Shown here: positions 12,800-16,335 of the stretch, piece after piece
How positions within the stretch are numbered: the first letter of the stretch is position 1
Layout: every line of letters starts with the position of its first letter
Notes under the pieces: model-generated
What the model was told of the DNA's origin: nothing
Databases searched by the model: none
Seen by the model: only the letters and a program-made list of their open reading frames with translations
Program-made: the position numbers and the translations under genes
Source: a virus
Taxonomy: Duplodnaviria > Heunggongvirae > Uroviricota > Caudoviricetes
Length of the DNA stretch: 17,603 bases
Virus record (IMG/VR): IMGVR_UViG_2711768068_000022
Reading direction: 5' to 3' (one strand)

Positions 12800-13241
12800 G
12801 GCTTACATCCTCAGGAAATTTTCTTCTGTAACGCGCCTCTGCCACATATTCCGCATAATCGGCGGCGATATTCAGTACATCAAGTCCCGTTGATTTATAT
12901 TCTTTCGTGGAAAGTAAGAAAAAAGCCGCTCTAATAAGTTCTGGCATTGACGAAAGCGCATCAGCCGCATCATCAGGAACGCCGGAAAATTCTTGTTTCA
13001 GGGAATTAAAACGATCATCACGCATAACCCCCCCCCCATTTTCACAATCAGCAACAAGAATATTTTTAGCGTCATTCAGCGACCGCGTTGCGATGTATCG
13101 GATACATTCCAGGGCGAACGTTGTCCGGTCTTTCTGTTCTTCTCCCTGCGCAAGCTCTGCCGTGCATTCAATATCAATAAGCGCGTGCATCAGCGTAGTG
13201 AGCGCGGCGGCGGCTGCGTCCGGTGTGGTTTTATTGCACAT
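12792..13241 (-). CDS. Hypothetical protein (149 aa) containing a G10 homopolymer in-frame
   Basis: Start placed at ATG 13239-13241 with AGGAGG SD (the track gives a TTG start at 13271); the start overlaps the stop of the upstream small paralog. Confidence 0.55.
   Translation of the reverse strand: MCNKTTPDAAAAALTTLMHALIDIECTAELAQGEEQKDRTTFALECIRYIATRSLNDAKNILVADCENGGGVMRDDRFNSLKQEFSGVPDDAADALSSMPELIRAAFFLLSTKEYKSTGLDVLNIAADYAEYVAEARYRRKFPEDVSHA
13028..13037. repeat. Homopolymeric C10/G10 tract inside a coding sequence
   Basis: Ten consecutive C on the plus strand (G10 on the coding strand, encoding NGGGV). Confidence 0.9.
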
Positions 13242-13404
13242 GGCACACCTCCTGACGAATACGGGCGACAAAAATCAGATGTGCGTGCGGCAGCTGTGCA
13301 CGTGCTTCGCGCTCAGTGGCAGCGGTAACGGTGAATATTGCAATACTGTCTGTCAGGCACTGCATAAAGCGCCAGACAAAATAAGGGCGTGTGAATACAG
13401 CCAT
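13231..13404 (-). CDS. Small paralog A (57 aa) of a tandem ORF family; may alternatively be the C-terminus of a longer ORF starting at 13698
   Basis: ATG 13402-13404 with GGAG SD; product shares the motif F(V/L)WRF...TEREAR...ARIRQ with paralog B; the same frame stays open upstream to ATG 13696-13698. Confidence 0.4.
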   Translation of the reverse strand: MAVFTRPYFVWRFMQCLTDSIAIFTVTAATEREARAQLPHAHLIFVARIRQEVCHVQ

Positions 13405-13690
13405 GTGAAAGGCTCCCAGATGAATTTTAAGGAGTCTCGCTACTACGCTGTCAAACATGGTGGCGAGACGTAACAGGGTTGACAGACTGGTCATCTGGAA
13501 ACCAGCGAGCACAAAGGCTCCCCCGTTACGCCCCGCCATAATGCGGGTATGGGTAGGTTTACGGACACAAAAAAACCGCTTATCGGATGTGGGCGGCTGT
13601 CCGCCAGATGTATTCAGGCTGTCAAACCCGGTCGCCATGTGGGCGACGGGGGAAGCATACAGCCCCGTGATAATTTTTTGCAAGCGGTTT

Positions 13691-14248
13691 TTACGCATGA
13701 TGTGACCCCTGACGAATACGGGCGGCGAATACAGCAACACAACCGGACGGGCAACGGCTACGCGCTTCGCGTTCCGTCCAGGCGGTTACGTGGATGATTT
13801 GATGTTCTGACGCGCCAAAGATGATAAAGCGCCAGAGAAAGGCGGTTTGAGAATGTACAAGGGTAGGGATAGTAGCCATGTTGGCAGCCTCCTCAGTGTG
13901 GTTAAGATAACCGCCACCGGAAACGCCAATTTCGCTGGTGGCGGACTGTACAGGGTTGGCGTAACCGGACACTGAAGAAACCGGCGCGGATTGCTCCGCC
14001 CCCGTACAGCCCACCATTGATAAGGTGTGACTATGCGGCACAAAAAAACACGCGGGGCGCGTGTTATGCGCTTCAGTTTTGCCCAGGACGCCAATCCCGG
14101 CACCCGTTTTATGAGGTGCGCGGGAATCATAGCTATTTTCGACACTGGCGATCAACTGGTTTTTTTCTCCGATATTCAGTGCCAGAAAACGCCACACAAA
14201 GGCAGTTTGTGTGTGTACAAGGTGTGGTATATGATTTACAGCAACCAT
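13691..14248 (-). CDS. Hypothetical protein (185 aa) with internal duplication; its C-terminal 62 aa (13691-13879) has its own strong SD and may be translated separately as paralog B
   Basis: ATG 14246-14248 with AGGAG SD and an upstream 5'-UTR hairpin; N-terminus MVAVNHIPHLVHTQTAFVWRF and internal MATIPTLVHSQTAFLWRF (GAGGAG SD) are paralogous. Confidence 0.4.
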   Translation of the reverse strand: MVAVNHIPHLVHTQTAFVWRFLALNIGEKNQLIASVENSYDSRAPHKTGAGIGVLGKTEAHNTRPACFFVPHSHTLSMVGCTGAEQSAPVSSVSGYANPVQSATSEIGVSGGGYLNHTEEAANMATIPTLVHSQTAFLWRFIIFGASEHQIIHVTAWTEREARSRCPSGCVAVFAARIRQGSHHA

Positions 14249-14339
14249 AACGGCTCCTAGTTTACGTTGTTGGTTAGACGCCCTGCATGTGTTGCGAGCA
14301 CTGCGGGGTTTCGTCTTTTCTGTACCTTGCATTAACAAG

Positions 14340-14421
14340 GTGTAAGACACAATGTAAAATAACGGTGTCTTACACGTCAACCCTTCAAAATATTTTTTTT
14401 TCGTGTATATTGTCTTACACC
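14340..14421 (+). promoter_or_regulatory. Operator/promoter region of RHH module 1
   Basis: Perfect 11-bp inverted repeat GTGTAAGACAC (14340-14350) / GTGTCTTACAC (14365-14375), a third half-site TGTCTTACACC (14411-14421), and candidate -35 TTCAAA (14384-14389) / -10 TATATT (14406-14411). Confidence 0.5.
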
Positions 14422-14441
14422 AAAAACATGAGGGGTTAAAC

Positions 14442-14621
14442 ATGGCAACGGGTCCAAAGAATGCAAAATCACAATCTGTAACTGCACGTATTGCCCATGA
14501 AATTATTGAAGGCATGGAGAACGTGAAAGAAGAAGGTGAAAGCACGGGGCAGTTTATAAACGCAGCCATGCGCGGCGAAATCAAACGCCGCCAGCGCCGC
14601 AAGACCAAAGAATCAGAATAA
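14442..14621 (+). CDS. Arc/MetJ-like ribbon-helix-helix DNA-binding protein (59 aa), module 1
   Basis: ATG with GAGGGG SD 6 nt upstream; predicted strand-helix-helix pattern (SVTARIAHEIIEGMENVKEEGESTGQFINAAMRGEI), basic C-terminal tail. Confidence 0.6.
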   Translation: MATGPKNAKSQSVTARIAHEIIEGMENVKEEGESTGQFINAAMRGEIKRRQRRKTKESE

Positions 14622-14625
14622 TCAC

Positions 14626-14670
14626 CATCAGCGCCGTGGCGTGAGGTACTACGGCGCATTGCTTTACAGG
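14626..14670 (+). repeat. Conserved 45-bp intergenic element, copy 1 (hairpin GCGCCG-N15-CGGCGC followed by ATTGCTTTACAGG)
   Basis: Near-identical to 15311-15355 (2 differences) although the flanking coding sequences are diverged. Confidence 0.7.
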
Positions 14671-14678
14671 GCAGTACC

Positions 14679-14906
14679 ATGACCAACAACACACTATCAC
14701 CAATACAAGACACGCAGACGCAAGAAGATGAAATCATTCGGCAAAGGCAGTTAGAAACCTGTGCTCGCCTTGAAGCCGAACTGGCTAATCCTCTGAATAT
14801 CCAACTAATACCGATAGAAATGAAACCTGGACTATTCGCGTTGGAGGCATTTTTAGCAAGCTGCCCACGGCGGCTAAAGTCCCGTAAGAATCGCCCGCCA
14901 GGATGA
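14679..14906 (+). CDS. Hypothetical small protein (75 aa), module 1 second gene
   Basis: ATG 57 nt after the RHH1 stop; weak SD; begins MTN like its counterpart in module 2. Confidence 0.4.
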   Translation: MTNNTLSPIQDTQTQEDEIIRQRQLETCARLEAELANPLNIQLIPIEMKPGLFALEAFLASCPRRLKSRKNRPPG

Positions 14907-15025
14907 GTACACAAAACCGAACTATGAAACGGATTATTCCGTTTCCGGGGCGTTTGTGTGTGTATAAAGAGTAAGCTATGCTCTTTTATAGCCATAATCG
15001 TTACCTCAATTAATGGTTTGGTTAG

Positions 15026-15067
15026 ACGCCCCGTATGTGTTCCCATCACTGCGGGGCGTTGTTTTTT
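15026..15067 (+). terminator. Rho-independent terminator of RHH module 1
   Basis: 8-bp perfect stem ACGCCCCG/CGGGGCGT (15026-15033 / 15052-15059) followed by TTGTTTTTTG. Confidence 0.55.
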
Positions 15068-15083
15068 GTGCTAGTTGTGTGTA

Positions 15084-15099
15084 ATGTGTATATACACAT
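15084..15099 (+). promoter_or_regulatory. 16-bp perfect palindrome ATGTGTATATACACAT overlapping a candidate -10; putative operator of RHH module 2
   Basis: Read directly; sits about 30 bp upstream of the RHH2 start; a second dyad TTGAC-GT-GTCAA follows at 15122-15133. Confidence 0.45.
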
Positions 15100-15126
15100 A
15101 AACACATTATATGGAGTGTAATTGAC

Positions 15127-15306
15127 GTGTCAACACACAAAAATGAAAGGCGTGGTAATCCTCCTTTCCAGTTCCGTTTAGATCCTGACTTACGGGAAAA
15201 GATGGAAAAAGCACAACAACAAGACGGTGATGACTCTTTAGCAGCTTGGATAAAACGAATAATCCGAAAAGAATTACAGCAACGCGGTATTGAACCCAAA
15301 GAATAA
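15127..15306 (+). CDS. Arc-like ribbon-helix-helix DNA-binding protein (59 aa, GTG start), module 2
   Basis: Not in the ORF track (GTG start, under 60 aa); GGAG 10 nt upstream; PPFQFRLDPDLREKMEKAQQQDGDDSLAAWIKRIIRKEL aligns with the P22 Arc strand-helix-helix pattern as recalled. Confidence 0.5.
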   Translation: MSTHKNERRGNPPFQFRLDPDLREKMEKAQQQDGDDSLAAWIKRIIRKELQQRGIEPKE

Positions 15307-15310
15307 AAAA

Positions 15311-15355
15311 CATCAGCGCCGTGGCGTGAGGAACTCCGGCGCATTGCTTTACAGG
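15311..15355 (+). repeat. Conserved 45-bp intergenic element, copy 2
   Basis: Same position (57-nt intergenic gap) and sequence as copy 1. Confidence 0.7.
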
Positions 15356-15363
15356 TACACACA

Positions 15364-15567
15364 ATGACCAATAAAGAATCAACCAATACACCATCGCAAA
15401 AAACGAACAGAGAGCACGAAAATATGGCGCTCGAGCATGAATCAGAAAGATTCGCTCCATGCGCTTTTGTCCTTGATGAGTTTCTAAAAAAATATTCACG
15501 TTCTGAACGGATGAAAATGGCAGCACAATACGGCCCCAACAAGCAAGGTAATTGCCCACCAGCCTGA
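15364..15567 (+). CDS. Hypothetical small protein (67 aa), module 2 second gene
   Basis: ATG 57 nt after the RHH2 stop; weak SD. Confidence 0.4.
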   Translation: MTNKESTNTPSQKTNREHENMALEHESERFAPCAFVLDEFLKKYSRSERMKMAAQYGPNKQGNCPPA

Positions 15568-15641
15568 TAGCGGCTATCATTCCCGTGCTTATGTTTGGGA
15601 TCACATACACATAAGGCGCAGCAGGTTAATTGTTCAGAAAG

Positions 15642-15669
15642 GCGGCTCCATATCGGGGCCGCTTTTTTT
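15642..15669 (+). terminator. Rho-independent terminator of RHH module 2
   Basis: Stem GCGGCTCC/GGGGCCGC (one G-U pair), 5-nt loop, then T7. Confidence 0.65.
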
Positions 15670-15810
15670 ATGCCTGAAAAACCCCAATTTTGTTGTTTTT
15701 CAGTTTCACCAGGGCGAACGAATCCCCGCCCACGTTCGGGCGCATATTCAATCTTCATGGTTATATCTCTGTATTAGTGGATGTGTGGCGACTGTGTGCC
15801 GCCAGTCTTT

Positions 15811-15999: not shown

Positions 16000-16050
16000 T
16001 ATTGCCCCCTTTCGTTTCTTAAAGAGTTATTTCGTGTTCTATTGCGTTGG

Positions 16051-16080
16051 GATGTGTCTGATTGTGTCAGGATGATTCAG
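16051..16080 (+). repeat. Three tandem 10-bp units GATGTGTCTG / ATTGTGTCAG / GATGATTCAG upstream of alpA
   Basis: Read directly; helical-turn phasing; same TGTGTC core as the arrays at 1979-2013 and 16281-16335. Confidence 0.5.
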
Positions 16081-16160
16081 AGTTGGCAAATGTTGGTGTC
16101 GCATGGTTTACAGAAAGAGGAATAATCAGAATAAAATCATTTAAATTCATGTTAATACAA

Positions 16161-16190
16161 AGGCATAAAATCTTGTTTTATGCCTTTTTT
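16161..16190. terminator. Palindromic hairpin terminator between int and alpA (possibly bidirectional)
   Basis: Perfect 10-bp stem AGGCATAAAA/TTTTATGCCT with a 5-nt loop; T5 on the plus side, U-rich on the minus side. Confidence 0.55.
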
Positions 16191-16280
16191 CGCACGCTTT
16201 AACGCGTAATTCACTAATGTATAAAAAACCAGCTGAGCATTAAAAATCAGTAACTTACAAATCTGTATTCTTTTTGGCCT

Positions 16281-16335
16281 CTTGTTCGTGATTGTGTCAC
16301 GTTGTTGCACATTGTTTCACGTTGTATCTGTGCAC
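16281..16335 (+). repeat. Tandem ~20-bp direct repeats (GTTGTTGCACATTGTKTCAC) just 3' of int
   Basis: 15-bp ATTGTGTCACGTTGT (16291-16305) and ATTGTTTCACGTTGT (16311-16325) differ at one position, with a partial third unit. Confidence 0.55.

What the first reader, a model, noticed from the sequence alone, without database searches (positions are those of the whole stretch)
14262..15700. Tandemly duplicated Arc-like RHH two-gene modules with a near-identical 45-bp intergenic element
Two plus-strand modules (14340-14906 and 15084-15567) each have an operator-like palindrome, a roughly 59-aa Arc-like RHH protein, an intergenic gap of exactly 57 nt, and a 67-75-aa second protein starting MTN. The proteins are strongly diverged, yet the 45-bp intergenic element is about 96 percent identical between copies. 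That points to selection or gene conversion on a non-coding RNA structure or a binding site. The module is on the opposite strand to the rest of the island and sits between alpA and the replication genes, where a satellite's helper-sensing switch would be expected; an RHH antitoxin plus toxin is an alternative.
Basis: partly seen in the sequence, partly recalled or inferred. Interest (0 to 1): 0.7.

Follow-up and report, generated by a model that had tools for sequence, protein, structure and literature searches.

The report
Phage-satellite repressor modules, conserved linker hairpin
In the control region of an E. coli phage satellite lie two side-by-side switch modules, each a small DNA-binding repressor gene, a conserved 45-base hairpin and a tiny cargo gene; the repressors look like the satellite's so far undescribed off-switch, while the job of the hairpin remains unproven.

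Summary
Two plus-strand modules each hold an operator region, a 59-aa ribbon-helix-helix (RHH) gene, an exactly 57-nt gap and an MTN… small gene. The gaps share a 45-nt core that is 43/45 identical.

The window is a capsid-forming PICI satellite of E. coli. The modules lie between alpA and the icd-like/replication operon.

They are not a recent duplication. The coding parts are no more alike than shuffled sequence. Only two non-coding blocks are shared.

The RHH proteins are very probably allele-specific repressors. The predicted fold matches RHH proteins, and the operator repeats co-vary with the DNA-reading strand. The operators overlap a conserved strong leftward promoter and the RHH gene's own promoter.

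"Gene 2" is an E. coli-only orphan, mostly disordered, occupying a variable cargo slot.

The 45-nt element is a plus-strand intercistronic hairpin plus ribosome-binding block. It sits 4 nt after the upstream stop and 8 nt before the next ATG. It is found in about 31% of complete E. coli genomes and in no phage record. It marks recombination joints. Its covariation is not significant, so its function is unresolved.

Rejected: toxin-antitoxin pair, stop-codon readthrough, sar-like antisense RNA, minus-strand coding.

By-products: a well-supported antisense small RNA against the icd-like gene, and strong Chi enrichment.

The parts
14218..14334 (+). Candidate small RNA 'as-icd', copy 1. It has a -10-like TATGAT (14230-14235), the complement of the ash/icd-like start codon and SD, two small helices, and a terminator hairpin (about 14277-14312) with a T-run.
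   Evidence: Covariance model R1 scores 77 bits, E 4e-17. The family shows strong covariation. This is repeat D2.
14340..14420 (.). Module-1 control region. Operator repeats GTGTAAGACAC at 14340-14350 (+), 14365-14375 (-) and 14410-14420 (-, 1 mismatch). Leftward promoter TTGACG(14380..14375)-18-TACATT(14356..14351). Rightward promoter TTCAAA-16-TATATT (14384-14411).
14442..14621 (+). RHH1, a 59-aa YlcI/YnfO-family ribbon-helix-helix protein and putative repressor.
14626..14670 (+). 45-nt intercistronic element, copy 1. Hairpin 14631-14657 (9-bp stem, loop CGUGAGGUA), then AUUGCUUUACAGG carrying the weak SD of gene 2.
14679..14906 (+). gene2-1, 75 aa (type ending ...FALEAFL...PRRLKSRKNRPPG). 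It is not annotated in the near-identical RefSeq record.
14913..14990 (-). Truncated ash/icd-like start (25 codons, MAIKEHSLLFIHTQT...). A recombination scar between the modules.
   Evidence: (repeat D6), read directly from the sequence.
14965..15082 (+). Candidate small RNA 'as-icd', copy 2. It has a -10-like TATGCT (14977-14982) and a terminator hairpin (about 15025-15059) with a T-run. In this arrangement it also serves as the terminator of the module-1 operon.
   Evidence: R1 scores 101.6 bits, E 1.9e-23.
15082..15133 (.). Module-2 control region. Inverted repeat TAATGTGT(15082-15089)/ACACATTA(15102-15109) around the palindrome 15084-15099. Perfect leftward sigma-70 promoter TTGACA(15133..15128)-16-TATAAT(15111..15106), whose -35 lies in the first codons of RHH2.
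15127..15306 (+). RHH2, a 59-aa Arc-like ribbon-helix-helix protein (GTG start) and putative repressor.
   Evidence: phrog_228 'Arc-like repressor' at 1.5e-6. A weak in-register match to YlcI_YnfO_N and to the RHH1 profile. pN/pS is 0.09.
15311..15355 (+). 45-nt intercistronic element, copy 2 (hairpin 15316-15342).
15364..15567 (+). gene2-2, 67 aa (...ERFAPCAFVLDEFLKKY...NCPPA). Its last codons contain a Chi complement.
   Evidence: phrog_21027 at 2.2e-12.. The AF2 model is mostly disordered with one helix at residues 36-55.
15640..15675 (+). Hairpin GGCGGCTCC...GGGGCCGC followed by T7, the terminator of the module-2 operon. It faces the 3' end of alpA.
   Evidence: Read directly from the sequence.

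Best explanation
Each module is the quiescent-state regulatory operon of a PICI-type phage satellite.

**RHH repressor (inferred).** The RHH protein is an allele-specific repressor. It binds three GGTG-N5-CAC-type repeats, or the TGTAATGTGT/ACACATTACA inverted repeat for the Arc-like type. These repeats lie in the spacer and at +1 of a strong leftward promoter, and at the -10/+1 of the RHH gene's own rightward promoter. The leftward promoter drives the icd-like/ash, C4/isrK and repA operon. The RHH therefore shuts off the satellite's replication operon and autoregulates. This makes it the counterpart of SaPI Stl or P22 Arc/Mnt.

**Cargo slot.** The position behind the RHH gene is a cargo slot. 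In E. coli it usually holds 'gene 2', a small, mostly disordered protein with one conserved amphipathic helix. Gene 2 is probably a protein-binding effector expressed with the repressor.

**45-nt element.** This is the intercistronic adaptor of the operon. It is a plus-strand mRNA hairpin that starts 9 nt after the RHH stop codon and displays a conserved GAGG-containing loop. It is followed by the weak ribosome-binding region of the cargo gene. The most likely role (inferred, not shown) is post-transcriptional uncoupling of repressor and cargo expression. This could work through mRNA 3'-end protection or processing after the hairpin, and/or control of ribosome loading on the cargo cistron. The element also serves as the homology patch at which RHH alleles and cargo alleles are reshuffled.

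**Tandem arrangement.** The tandem arrangement in this window arose when a second complete module recombined in. It left a truncated icd/ash start, and a leftward promoter that now fires antisense into module 1.
For: **Context.** The near-identical RefSeq locus is a satellite with int, an alpA-type HTH, RepA helicase, SSB, and capsid, portal, protease and terminase genes, lying between phoQ and roxA. C4, isrK and c4-a1b1 RNAs lie on the minus strand next to the modules.

**RHH.**
- Family hits are given.
- The AF2 model has the topology extended strand, helix 19-28, helix 35-58.

**Operators co-vary with the beta-strand.**
- KSQSVTARIAHE goes with GTGTAAGACAC.
- KSQALKARVPHE goes with GTGTGGCCCAC.
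- KSKKLEARVPHA goes with GTGTCAGCCAC.
- KSQMTTVRIPHE goes with GTGTATTTCAC.
- KSQKLQARAPHE goes with TGGATTCCA.
- KSTQLASRVPHD goes with GTGCTTAGCAC.

**Promoters and neighbouring gene.**
- A leftward promoter (TTGACG/A, 16-18 nt, T[AG]nnnT) is present in 41 of 54 distinct upstream regions of the YlcI type and 48 of 51 of the Arc type. It is a perfect 12/12 match in module 2.
- The first leftward gene is icd-like in about half of the 20 representative relatives.

**Coding status.** The + frames have the lowest pN/pS. The minus-strand ORFs show no 3-periodicity where they are not overlapped by + genes.

**Element.**
- There are 207 instances, all on the + strand and all with fixed 4-nt and 8-nt spacing.
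- It is present in all 106 loci found through gene 2.
- It is found at 2776 places in 1690 of 5426 E. coli genomes and in none of 50,697 phage records.
- The hairpin is the only consensus structure.
- 92.5% of cells are paired, with many G-U pairs.
- The + strand folds better than the minus strand in almost all of the 38 variants, with mean z -1.81 against -1.05.
- The loop GUGAGG(A/U)A is about 90% conserved.

**Shuffling.**
- The same gene 2 sits behind different RHH types.
- Element divergence is uncoupled from gene 2 pS.

**Cargo slot.** It holds gene 2, small lipoprotein-like ORFs, RelB, DUF3800, or nothing.
Against: - No experiment links the RHH proteins to repression. Published work credits AlpA as the activator of E. 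coli PICIs and calls the existence of a repressor 'unclear' (PMC6092414).
- Covariation in the 45-nt hairpin is not significant. It has 2 double changes, both from one sequence, and 64 of 500 shuffles reach the observed covariation score.
- About a third of the loci carry a variant with only a 5-bp stem.
- Single-sequence z-scores are modest.
- Relatives outside E. coli lack the hairpin, and there the cargo follows 3 nt after the RHH stop. The hairpin is therefore not needed for RHH function.
- The element is confined to one species, so part of its conservation may reflect youth and spread by recombination.
- No processing site, protein partner or phenotype can be derived from the sequence.
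Confidence: 0.55

Rival explanations
1. The 45-nt block has no biochemical function of its own. It is a conserved linker, a homology patch that persists because recombination and gene conversion among co-resident satellites keep homogenising it. Recombinants that join RHH alleles to cargo alleles can only arise there.
For: There is clear mosaicism. Identical gene 2 sits behind YlcI-type, Arc-type and other upstream genes. Element distance is uncoupled from gene 2 pS, at 0.077 for pS<0.05 and 0.088 for pS>0.4. Genomes carry up to 7 copies. The element is confined to E. coli/Shigella. Chi is highly enriched in these islands. Covariation is not significant.
Against: The element is more conserved than the adjacent codons, including their synonymous sites. 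The spacing is fixed with no indels in 207 copies. The bias to G-U pairs and the better fold are both specific to the + strand. When a different cargo follows, the hairpin half is kept and the 3' half is replaced. This suggests a unit with a function.
Confidence: 0.25
2. The hairpin loop and the downstream AGG are a sequence-specific binding site on the mRNA, acting as a translational operator for the cargo cistron. The binding partner could be the 30S subunit through the SD-like GAGG, a CsrA-type GGA reader, or the gene 2 or RHH protein itself.
For: Loop positions G20, T21, G22, A23, G25 and A27 are at least 90% conserved, as strongly as the stem. GAGG is displayed in a 5-9-nt loop. The cargo SD is weak, only AGG. 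The geometry relative to the stop codon and the ATG is fixed.
Against: The loop is GGA in only about half of the variants and GGU in the rest, so CsrA does not fit all of them. Cargo genes of unrelated families share the hairpin, which argues against autoregulation by gene 2. There is no covariation between the loop and the spacer before the ATG (read).
Confidence: 0.15
3. The hairpin is a leaky intrinsic terminator (attenuator) that lowers cargo expression relative to the repressor. It might be overridden by a helper-phage antiterminator.
For: A GC-rich stem of 9-11 bp is followed by AUUGCUUUAC, with 5-6 U in 10 nt, in the commonest variants. The position between a regulator gene and a distal gene is typical for such elements.
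Against: The terminator scan did not call it. The U-richness of the tail is not conserved: variants include ACUGGGUUAC, ACAGGGUUAC and GCAACCAUAGG. The stem is weak in the CCATAG...GCAGG variants.
Confidence: 0.08
4. RHH plus gene 2 is a type II toxin-antitoxin pair.
For: The gene order is a small RHH gene first and a small second gene after it. There is a faint VapB-like hit for RHH2 at E 0.012. A genuine RelB antitoxin sits in the same slot in some relatives.
Against: Gene 2 matches no toxin family in Pfam, NCBIfam or PADLOC. It is predicted mostly disordered. The RHH proteins have no C-terminal toxin-binding extension. Partners are freely shuffled and many islands carry the RHH gene alone. 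Gene 2 evolves under relaxed constraint, with pN/pS 0.44.
Confidence: 0.04
5. The element encodes a P22 sar-like antisense RNA on the minus strand, or the region is really a minus-strand protein gene.
For: The P22 arc-sar-ant layout is analogous. Very long minus-strand ORFs (452 and 250 aa) cover the modules, and PGAP annotates their counterparts in some genomes.
Against: No conserved minus-strand promoter lies in the 5' end of gene 2. Rfam gives no hit. The minus strand folds worse, and the G-U pairs become C-A mismatches on that strand. The minus-strand ORFs show no codon periodicity of substitutions where they are free of + genes: [17,18,16], [11,13,12] and [34,32,36], against [17,15,34] for the icd control.
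Confidence: 0.03

Closest known systems
Phage P22 immI region (Mnt / Arc ribbon-helix-helix repressors, Pant, sar RNA, ant)
   Same: Small RHH repressors act on operators at closely spaced, opposed promoters. An RHH gene is followed in the same operon by an effector gene. There is RNA-level control next to it.
   Different: Sequence similarity is limited to the weak Arc-like PHROG hit for RHH2. The second gene is 57-75 aa rather than the much larger Ant (size from own knowledge). No sar-like promoter or Rfam match was found in the intercistronic region. The antisense RNA found here targets the divergent icd-like gene, not the cargo gene.
SaPI / Gram-positive PICI master repressor Stl (Rpr), divergent from the xis-rep operon
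   Same: The position and logic match. A repressor gene is transcribed divergently from the replication operon of a satellite. The alleles are highly polymorphic, each with its own specificity.
   Different: Stl proteins are not RHH proteins (own knowledge). For E. coli PICIs the literature describes only the activator AlpA and calls a repressor 'unclear' (PMC6092414). Helper-protein binding by the RHH is entirely untested.
P4 / P1 immunity RNAs (P4 CI RNA = Rfam C4, seqA = isrK; P1 c4-icd-ant) in the 'dynamic zone' of Gram-negative PICIs (PMC10111431)
   Same: The same island zone and the same leftward operon (icd-like, C4, isrK). Both have an RNA layer of control over it.
   Different: The RHH modules, the 45-nt element and the as-icd RNA lie on the opposite strand. 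None of the papers read here mentions them as regulators, and they match no Rfam family. Only 1 of 20 related loci had a C4 hit within 2.5 kb of the RHH gene.
Repressor-operon 'morons' such as lambda cI-rexA-rexB
   Same: A variable accessory gene is co-transcribed with the maintenance repressor in the quiescent element. The slot holds different cargo in different relatives.
   Different: The cargo here is tiny and of unknown function. It is joined to the repressor gene by a conserved hairpin adaptor.
Type II toxin-antitoxin operons with RHH antitoxins (CopG/RelB/ParD types)
   Same: Gene order, gene size, the RHH fold and probable autoregulation.
   Different: The defining features tested here are not met (see membership test).

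Membership tests
Ribbon-helix-helix (Arc/MetJ/CopG) DNA-binding superfamily | Fold: an N-terminal beta-strand followed by two helices | tested here: met
Ribbon-helix-helix (Arc/MetJ/CopG) DNA-binding superfamily | Binds repeated operator half-sites read by the beta-strand | tested here: met
   The test is indirect. The repeat sequence changes together with the beta-strand residues across 8 or more allele groups, while the promoter backbone stays the same. Binding itself was not tested.
Ribbon-helix-helix (Arc/MetJ/CopG) DNA-binding superfamily | Obligate dimer forming a two-stranded sheet | not testable with these tools
   Only monomer prediction was available.
YlcI/YnfO family (NCBIfam NF041551) | Score at or above the curated cut-off of 30 bits | tested here: met
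   RHH1 scores 64.7 bits. RHH2 scores only 20 bits, below the cut-off, so RHH2 is not a member by this rule.
Type II toxin-antitoxin system | The second gene belongs to a recognisable toxin family or fold | tested here: not met
   There are no significant hits in Pfam, NCBIfam or PADLOC. The model is mostly disordered. All 66 homolog clusters are named 'hypothetical'.
Type II toxin-antitoxin system | Cognate pair kept together, and antitoxin with a toxin-binding extension | tested here: not met
   RHH and gene 2 types are freely recombined, and the RHH gene often stands alone. The RHH proteins end right after helix 2 with a short basic tail.
Type II toxin-antitoxin system | Toxicity of the second gene, neutralised by the first | not testable with these tools
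   Needs an experiment.
P22 sar-type cis-antisense RNA in the intercistronic region | Own promoter in the 5' end of the downstream gene, and a terminator on the opposite strand | tested here: not met
   No positionally conserved -35/-10 on the minus strand in 74 variants. No Rfam sar hit at E<=1. The minus strand folds more weakly.
Structured cis-regulatory RNA (the 45-nt element) | Base pairs supported by compensatory changes beyond controls | tested here: inconclusive
   92.5% of cells are paired (0 of 500 shuffles reach this). Only 2 cells show a double change, and 64 of 500 shuffles reach the observed covariation score. The alifold covariation term is -0.25.
Intrinsic terminator | GC-rich hairpin immediately followed by a conserved U-tract | tested here: not met
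   Not called by the scan. The tail composition varies among variants.
Programmed stop-codon readthrough giving an RHH-gene 2 fusion | Open frame between the stop codon and the downstream ATG, and a leaky stop codon | tested here: not met
   The 57 nt keep the frame, but 17 of 55 variants have in-frame stops, and the stop codon is UAA in 47 of 55.
Capsid-forming PICI satellite (context) | int, alpA and a replication gene plus its own capsid, portal, protease and terminase genes, with no tail genes, in about 15 kb | tested here: met
   Taken from the annotation of the 99.7%-identical locus NZ_CP027584. It matches the description in bioRxiv 10.1101/2022.09.08.507074.

The most novel reading that the evidence does not exclude
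The polymorphic RHH proteins are the missing master repressors of Gram-negative PICIs. Each allele holds the strong leftward icd/replication promoter shut through its own operators, and each is inactivated by a particular helper-phage signal. This signal could act directly or through AlpA-driven convergent transcription. On this reading the allele diversity maps helper specificity, as Stl does in SaPIs. The conserved hairpin would be a host- or helper-read RNA switch that sets expression of a fast-evolving, disordered effector (gene 2) aimed at phage or host proteins.
Probability: 0.2. Interest if true: 0.8.

Novelty: new variant of a known kind. Interest (0 to 1): 0.58.

Why it matters
How E. 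coli phage satellites (PICIs and cf-PICIs) are kept silent is still open. The founding paper found only an activator, AlpA, and stated that a global repressor is 'unclear' (PMC6092414).

A repressor-operator pair with clear allele-specific co-variation, sitting on the promoter of the replication operon, makes that question directly testable with a few reporter and gel-shift experiments.

The work also shows that current annotation hides these parts. Gene 2 of module 1 is unannotated, and in other genomes a spurious antisense ORF is annotated instead.

The 45-nt element is present in about a third of complete E. coli genomes and in no phage record. This makes it a handy marker for this class of satellites and for the joints at which their control regions are reshuffled.

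The antisense RNA against the icd-like gene adds a further, well-supported RNA layer to satellite control.

Tried and rejected
1. **Minus-strand coding.** The 452-aa and 250-aa antisense ORFs share third codon positions with the + genes, so simple periodicity could not separate the strands. pN/pS and the periodicity of the parts not overlapped by + genes reject them.
2. **Stop-codon readthrough fusion.** The frame is kept and the hairpin starts 9 nt after the stop, but in-frame stops occur in 17 of 55 variants.
3. **sar-like antisense RNA.** There is no conserved promoter.
4. **Pairing with the island's C4 or isrK RNAs.** Duplex energies are mostly within shuffles. The one outlier comes from both RNAs sharing a GCGCCGG palindromic stem, and most relatives lack C4 nearby.
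5. **Pseudoknot between the loop and the spacer before the ATG.** GGUACU/AGUACC pair in copy 1 only, with no co-variation across variants (read).
6. **Kissing between the as-icd terminator loop and the element loop.** A 5-nt GGAAC/GUUCC match occurs in module 2 only.
7. **boxA/boxB (nut-like), IHF, CsrA and RNase E consensus resemblances.** All are partial and not conserved across variants, by inspection only.
8. **Mini-ORF from the TTG in the element.** The start is not conserved.
9. **Searches that gave nothing.** Pfam gave nothing for the four proteins. Foldseek against the PDB gave nothing. A PDB sequence search gave only a marginal ArtA hit. The phage collection gave no match.
10. **Not done.** A genome-contig scan was not used. 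Gene 2 proved restricted to E. coli/Shigella, and the IMG/VR loci already gave enough diversity.
Full report
**What the window is**

A 2-kb query around the finding matches 1575 complete E. coli genomes. The best hit is 99.7% identical (NZ_CP027584).

In that record the island lies between phoQ and roxA. It encodes an integrase, an AlpA-type HTH protein, RepA helicase, SSB, PerC, major capsid protein, prohead protease, portal, head-tail connectors, HNH and terminase subunits. That is the gene set described for capsid-forming PICIs (bioRxiv 10.1101/2022.09.08.507074).

All of these genes are on the minus strand. On the minus strand next to the finding, Rfam finds:
- two C4 RNAs (13456-13543 and 13934-14021);
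- isrK (14043-14119);
- a c4-a1b1 target (13611-13660).

Icd-like ORFs and an ash-family pseudogene accompany them. Tommasini et al. already noted C4/isrK (relatives of P4 CI/seqA) in the 'dynamic zone' of Gram-negative PICIs (PMC10111431).

Coordinates, strand, the 57-nt gaps and the MTN starts are as stated. The 45-nt core is 43/45 identical.

GTGTAAGACAC occurs three times in the module-1 control region and nowhere else in the window (expected 0.17). Module 2 has a perfect 16-bp palindrome nested in an 8-bp inverted repeat.

**The small ORFs are genes; the long antisense ORFs are not**

PGAP annotates long minus-strand ORFs over this region in some genomes. The window itself has 452-aa and 250-aa antisense ORFs. 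These share third codon positions with the plus-strand genes, so raw periodicity cannot decide between strands.

Two other tests do decide:
- pN/pS is lowest in the plus frames: RHH1 0.26, RHH2 0.09, gene 2 0.44. The antisense frame gives 0.37, 0.28 and 0.53.
- Where the antisense ORFs are not overlapped by plus-strand genes, substitutions have no periodicity: [17,18,16], [11,13,12] and [34,32,36]. The icd-like control shows [17,15,34].

**The first genes are RHH repressors with cognate operators**

RHH1 is a YlcI/YnfO-family protein (64.7 bits against a cut-off of 30). RHH2 hits the PHROG 'Arc-like repressor' and aligns in register with the RHH1 profile.

The strongest evidence is comparative. 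In 160 loci found through the two proteins, the YlcI-type upstream regions keep the same backbone but carry three repeats of the form GGTG-N5-CAC. The centre of these repeats changes together with the residues of the predicted DNA-reading strand. Eight or more allele groups show this.

The backbone contains a leftward promoter, TTGACG-17/18-TAnnnT. One repeat lies in its spacer and one at its start site. A rightward -10 (TATAYT) abuts the third repeat.

The Arc-like type has TTGACA-16/18-T(A/G)TAAT/TAATGT overlapping its inverted repeat. In the window this is a perfect 12/12 consensus promoter.

In about half of the 20 representative relatives examined, the first gene served by the leftward promoter is recognisably icd-like. 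In this island that operon continues to repA.

The inference is that the RHH proteins repress the satellite's replication operon and their own promoter, with immunity-like allele specificity. None of the papers I could search assigns such a role. YlcI/YnfO appears only as a 'prophage-associated protein' (PMC13612085). The PICI founding paper says a repressor in Gram-negative elements is 'unclear' (PMC6092414).

**Not a tandem duplication**

Outside two non-coding blocks the modules are no more alike than shuffled sequence. A 25-codon remnant of an icd/ash start lies between them (14913-14990).

Relatives carry one module, two modules in other allele combinations, or the RHH gene alone. The arrangement is best read as a second module recombined in. 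Its strong leftward promoter now points into module 1.

**Gene 2 and the cargo slot**

Gene 2 proteins form one family built around a short motif ((R/K)FA..F.LE.F(L/V).KY...). Their N- and C-terminal parts are mosaic.

A profile search of 5.8 billion proteins finds only 66 clusters. Every one with a source name is from E. coli or Shigella and is called 'hypothetical', and none has a Pfam domain. The model is disordered apart from one helix over the motif.

In other relatives the same position holds different cargo:
- a 47-53-aa lipoprotein-like ORF;
- a RelB antitoxin;
- a DUF3800 protein;
- another DUF3950 protein;
- nothing.

Free shuffling of partners, RHH genes standing alone and the lack of any toxin signature argue against a toxin-antitoxin pair.

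**The 45-nt element**

An HMM of the element finds 207 copies in 270 loci, all on the plus strand. Every copy starts 4 nt after the stop codon of the upstream gene and ends 8 nt before the ATG of the next gene. This holds whatever those genes are, including gene 2 itself as the upstream gene.

All 106 loci retrieved through gene 2, which were not selected for the element, have it. About 31% of complete E. coli genomes carry it (2776 places). No phage record does.

The only consensus structure is one hairpin, at window positions 14631-14657 and 15316-15342. Across 33 variants:
- 92.5% of pair cells are standard pairs, many of them G-U. These would be C-A mismatches on the other strand.
- Only one sequence carries true double changes, so covariation is not significant.

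Across 38 distinct 45-mers the plus strand folds better than the minus strand in almost all of them. Mean z is -1.81 against -1.05.

The loop (GUGAGG(A/U)A) is as conserved as the stem. When a different cargo follows, the hairpin half is kept and the 3' half, which carries the weak AGG Shine-Dalgarno of gene 2, is replaced. Where the RHH gene is the last gene, the hairpin is absent.

Element divergence is uncoupled from the synonymous divergence of the adjacent gene 2. Identical cargo follows different RHH types. The element therefore marks recombination joints.

I conclude that it is an intercistronic mRNA hairpin plus ribosome-binding block. Its most likely role is to set cargo expression relative to the repressor, by protecting or processing the upstream message and/or controlling ribosome loading. 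That step is inferred, not shown. A 'linker only' reading cannot be excluded.

Rejected alternatives:
- readthrough fusion;
- sar-like antisense RNA;
- terminator;
- pairing with C4/isrK.

**By-products**

*The second shared block is a small RNA gene.* It lies at 14270-14322 and 15018-15070. In 32 diverse variants an invariant TAnnnT -10 is followed by the complement of the icd-like start codon and Shine-Dalgarno sequence, three helices and a T-run.

The supporting numbers are:
- 97.2% of pair cells are paired, against 86.4% for shuffles;
- 12 pairs and 64 cells carry double changes;
- no shuffle out of 500 reaches any of the measures;
- slid controls pair only 39-47%.

A covariance model hits exactly two places in the window (14218-14334 and 14965-15082, plus strand). 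It also hits one or two places upstream of the RHH promoter in 19 of the 20 related loci searched; the RHH-less array L003 had none. Rfam has no match.

This is a candidate cis-antisense RNA of about 80 nt against the translation start of the icd-like gene. Its terminator also ends the module-1 operon in this window.

*The island is very rich in Chi.* There are 18 sites in 17.6 kb against 0.58 expected. Density is 1.08 per kb in the island against 0.10 per kb in its flanks, and 0.78 per kb over 1.23 Mb of related loci. One site forms the last codons of gene2-2, and Chi complements follow the RHH stop in relatives that lack cargo.

**Verdict**

It points to an undescribed repressor layer in E. 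coli satellites. The 'duplication' and 'toxin-antitoxin' readings are wrong.

The 45-nt element is a genuine conserved feature specific to this class of satellites, and its function remains open.

Overall this is a new variant of known kinds, namely an RHH immunity-type switch and an intercistronic mRNA element. It is of moderate-to-good interest because it makes the question of how Gram-negative PICIs are repressed directly testable.

Noticed in passing
window 14218-14334 and 14965-15082 (+): A conserved, strongly covarying small-RNA candidate of about 80 nt ('as-icd'). It has an invariant TAnnnT -10, the complement of the icd-like/ash start codon and SD, three helices and a T-run terminator. 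Rfam has no match. It is antisense to the 5'UTR and translation start of the leftward icd-like gene.
   Followed up: yes
whole window (18 sites, e.g. 13934-13941 +, 15556-15563 -); L001: Chi (GCTGGTGG) is about 10-fold enriched in the island on both strands. There are 18 sites against 0.58 expected, and 1.08 per kb against 0.10 per kb in the flanks. Related loci have 0.78 per kb. No paper on Chi in PICIs was found. Possible roles are RecBCD protection of the linear satellite DNA and/or recombination hot spots.
   Followed up: partly
window 13231-14250 (-): Two tandem immunity-RNA units lie on the minus strand: C4 at 13456-13543 and 13934-14021, and isrK at 14043-14119 with a weak copy at 13569-13647. 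A c4-a1b1 target lies at 13611-13660. Icd-like ORFs and an ash pseudogene accompany them. The P4/P1-type RNA immunity cassette is thus itself duplicated.
   Followed up: partly
window 13691-15049 (-), 15006-15758 (-); L002 2357-2950; L004 2294-2857: Very long antisense ORFs run across the modules and share third codon positions with the + genes. PGAP annotates them in some genomes as an 'Icd-like' pseudogene or a hypothetical protein. The real gene2-1 (14679-14906) is unannotated in NZ_CP027584.
   Followed up: yes
loci L100, L104, L110, L059, L151, L135, L164 (just after the RHH stop): The position behind the RHH gene is a variable cargo slot. It holds 47-53-aa lipoprotein-like ORFs, a RelB antitoxin, DUF3800, a second DUF3950 protein, or nothing. 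Cargo-less relatives have CCACCAGC (the Chi complement) directly after the stop, often twice.
   Followed up: partly
L003 (NZ_CP122727) 2224-2990: A degenerate array of element plus gene-2-like ORFs with no RHH gene, next to a transposase fragment. One of these element copies carries the only fully compensatory stem changes seen.
   Followed up: partly
window 16040-16330 (read on the minus strand): Repeats of GACACAATCA / CAACGTGA(A/C)ACAAT flank the alpA promoter-like site (16155..16128). A perfect hairpin at 16159-16187 follows int. These are possible AlpA or Int binding sites.
   Followed up: no
E. coli genomes H14-H16 (e.g. NZ_CP104472): Some genomes appear to carry a third module. Two YlcI/YnfO genes and three hypothetical genes lie under a match stretched to 2.7-3.6 kb. 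Up to 7 element copies occur per genome.
   Followed up: no
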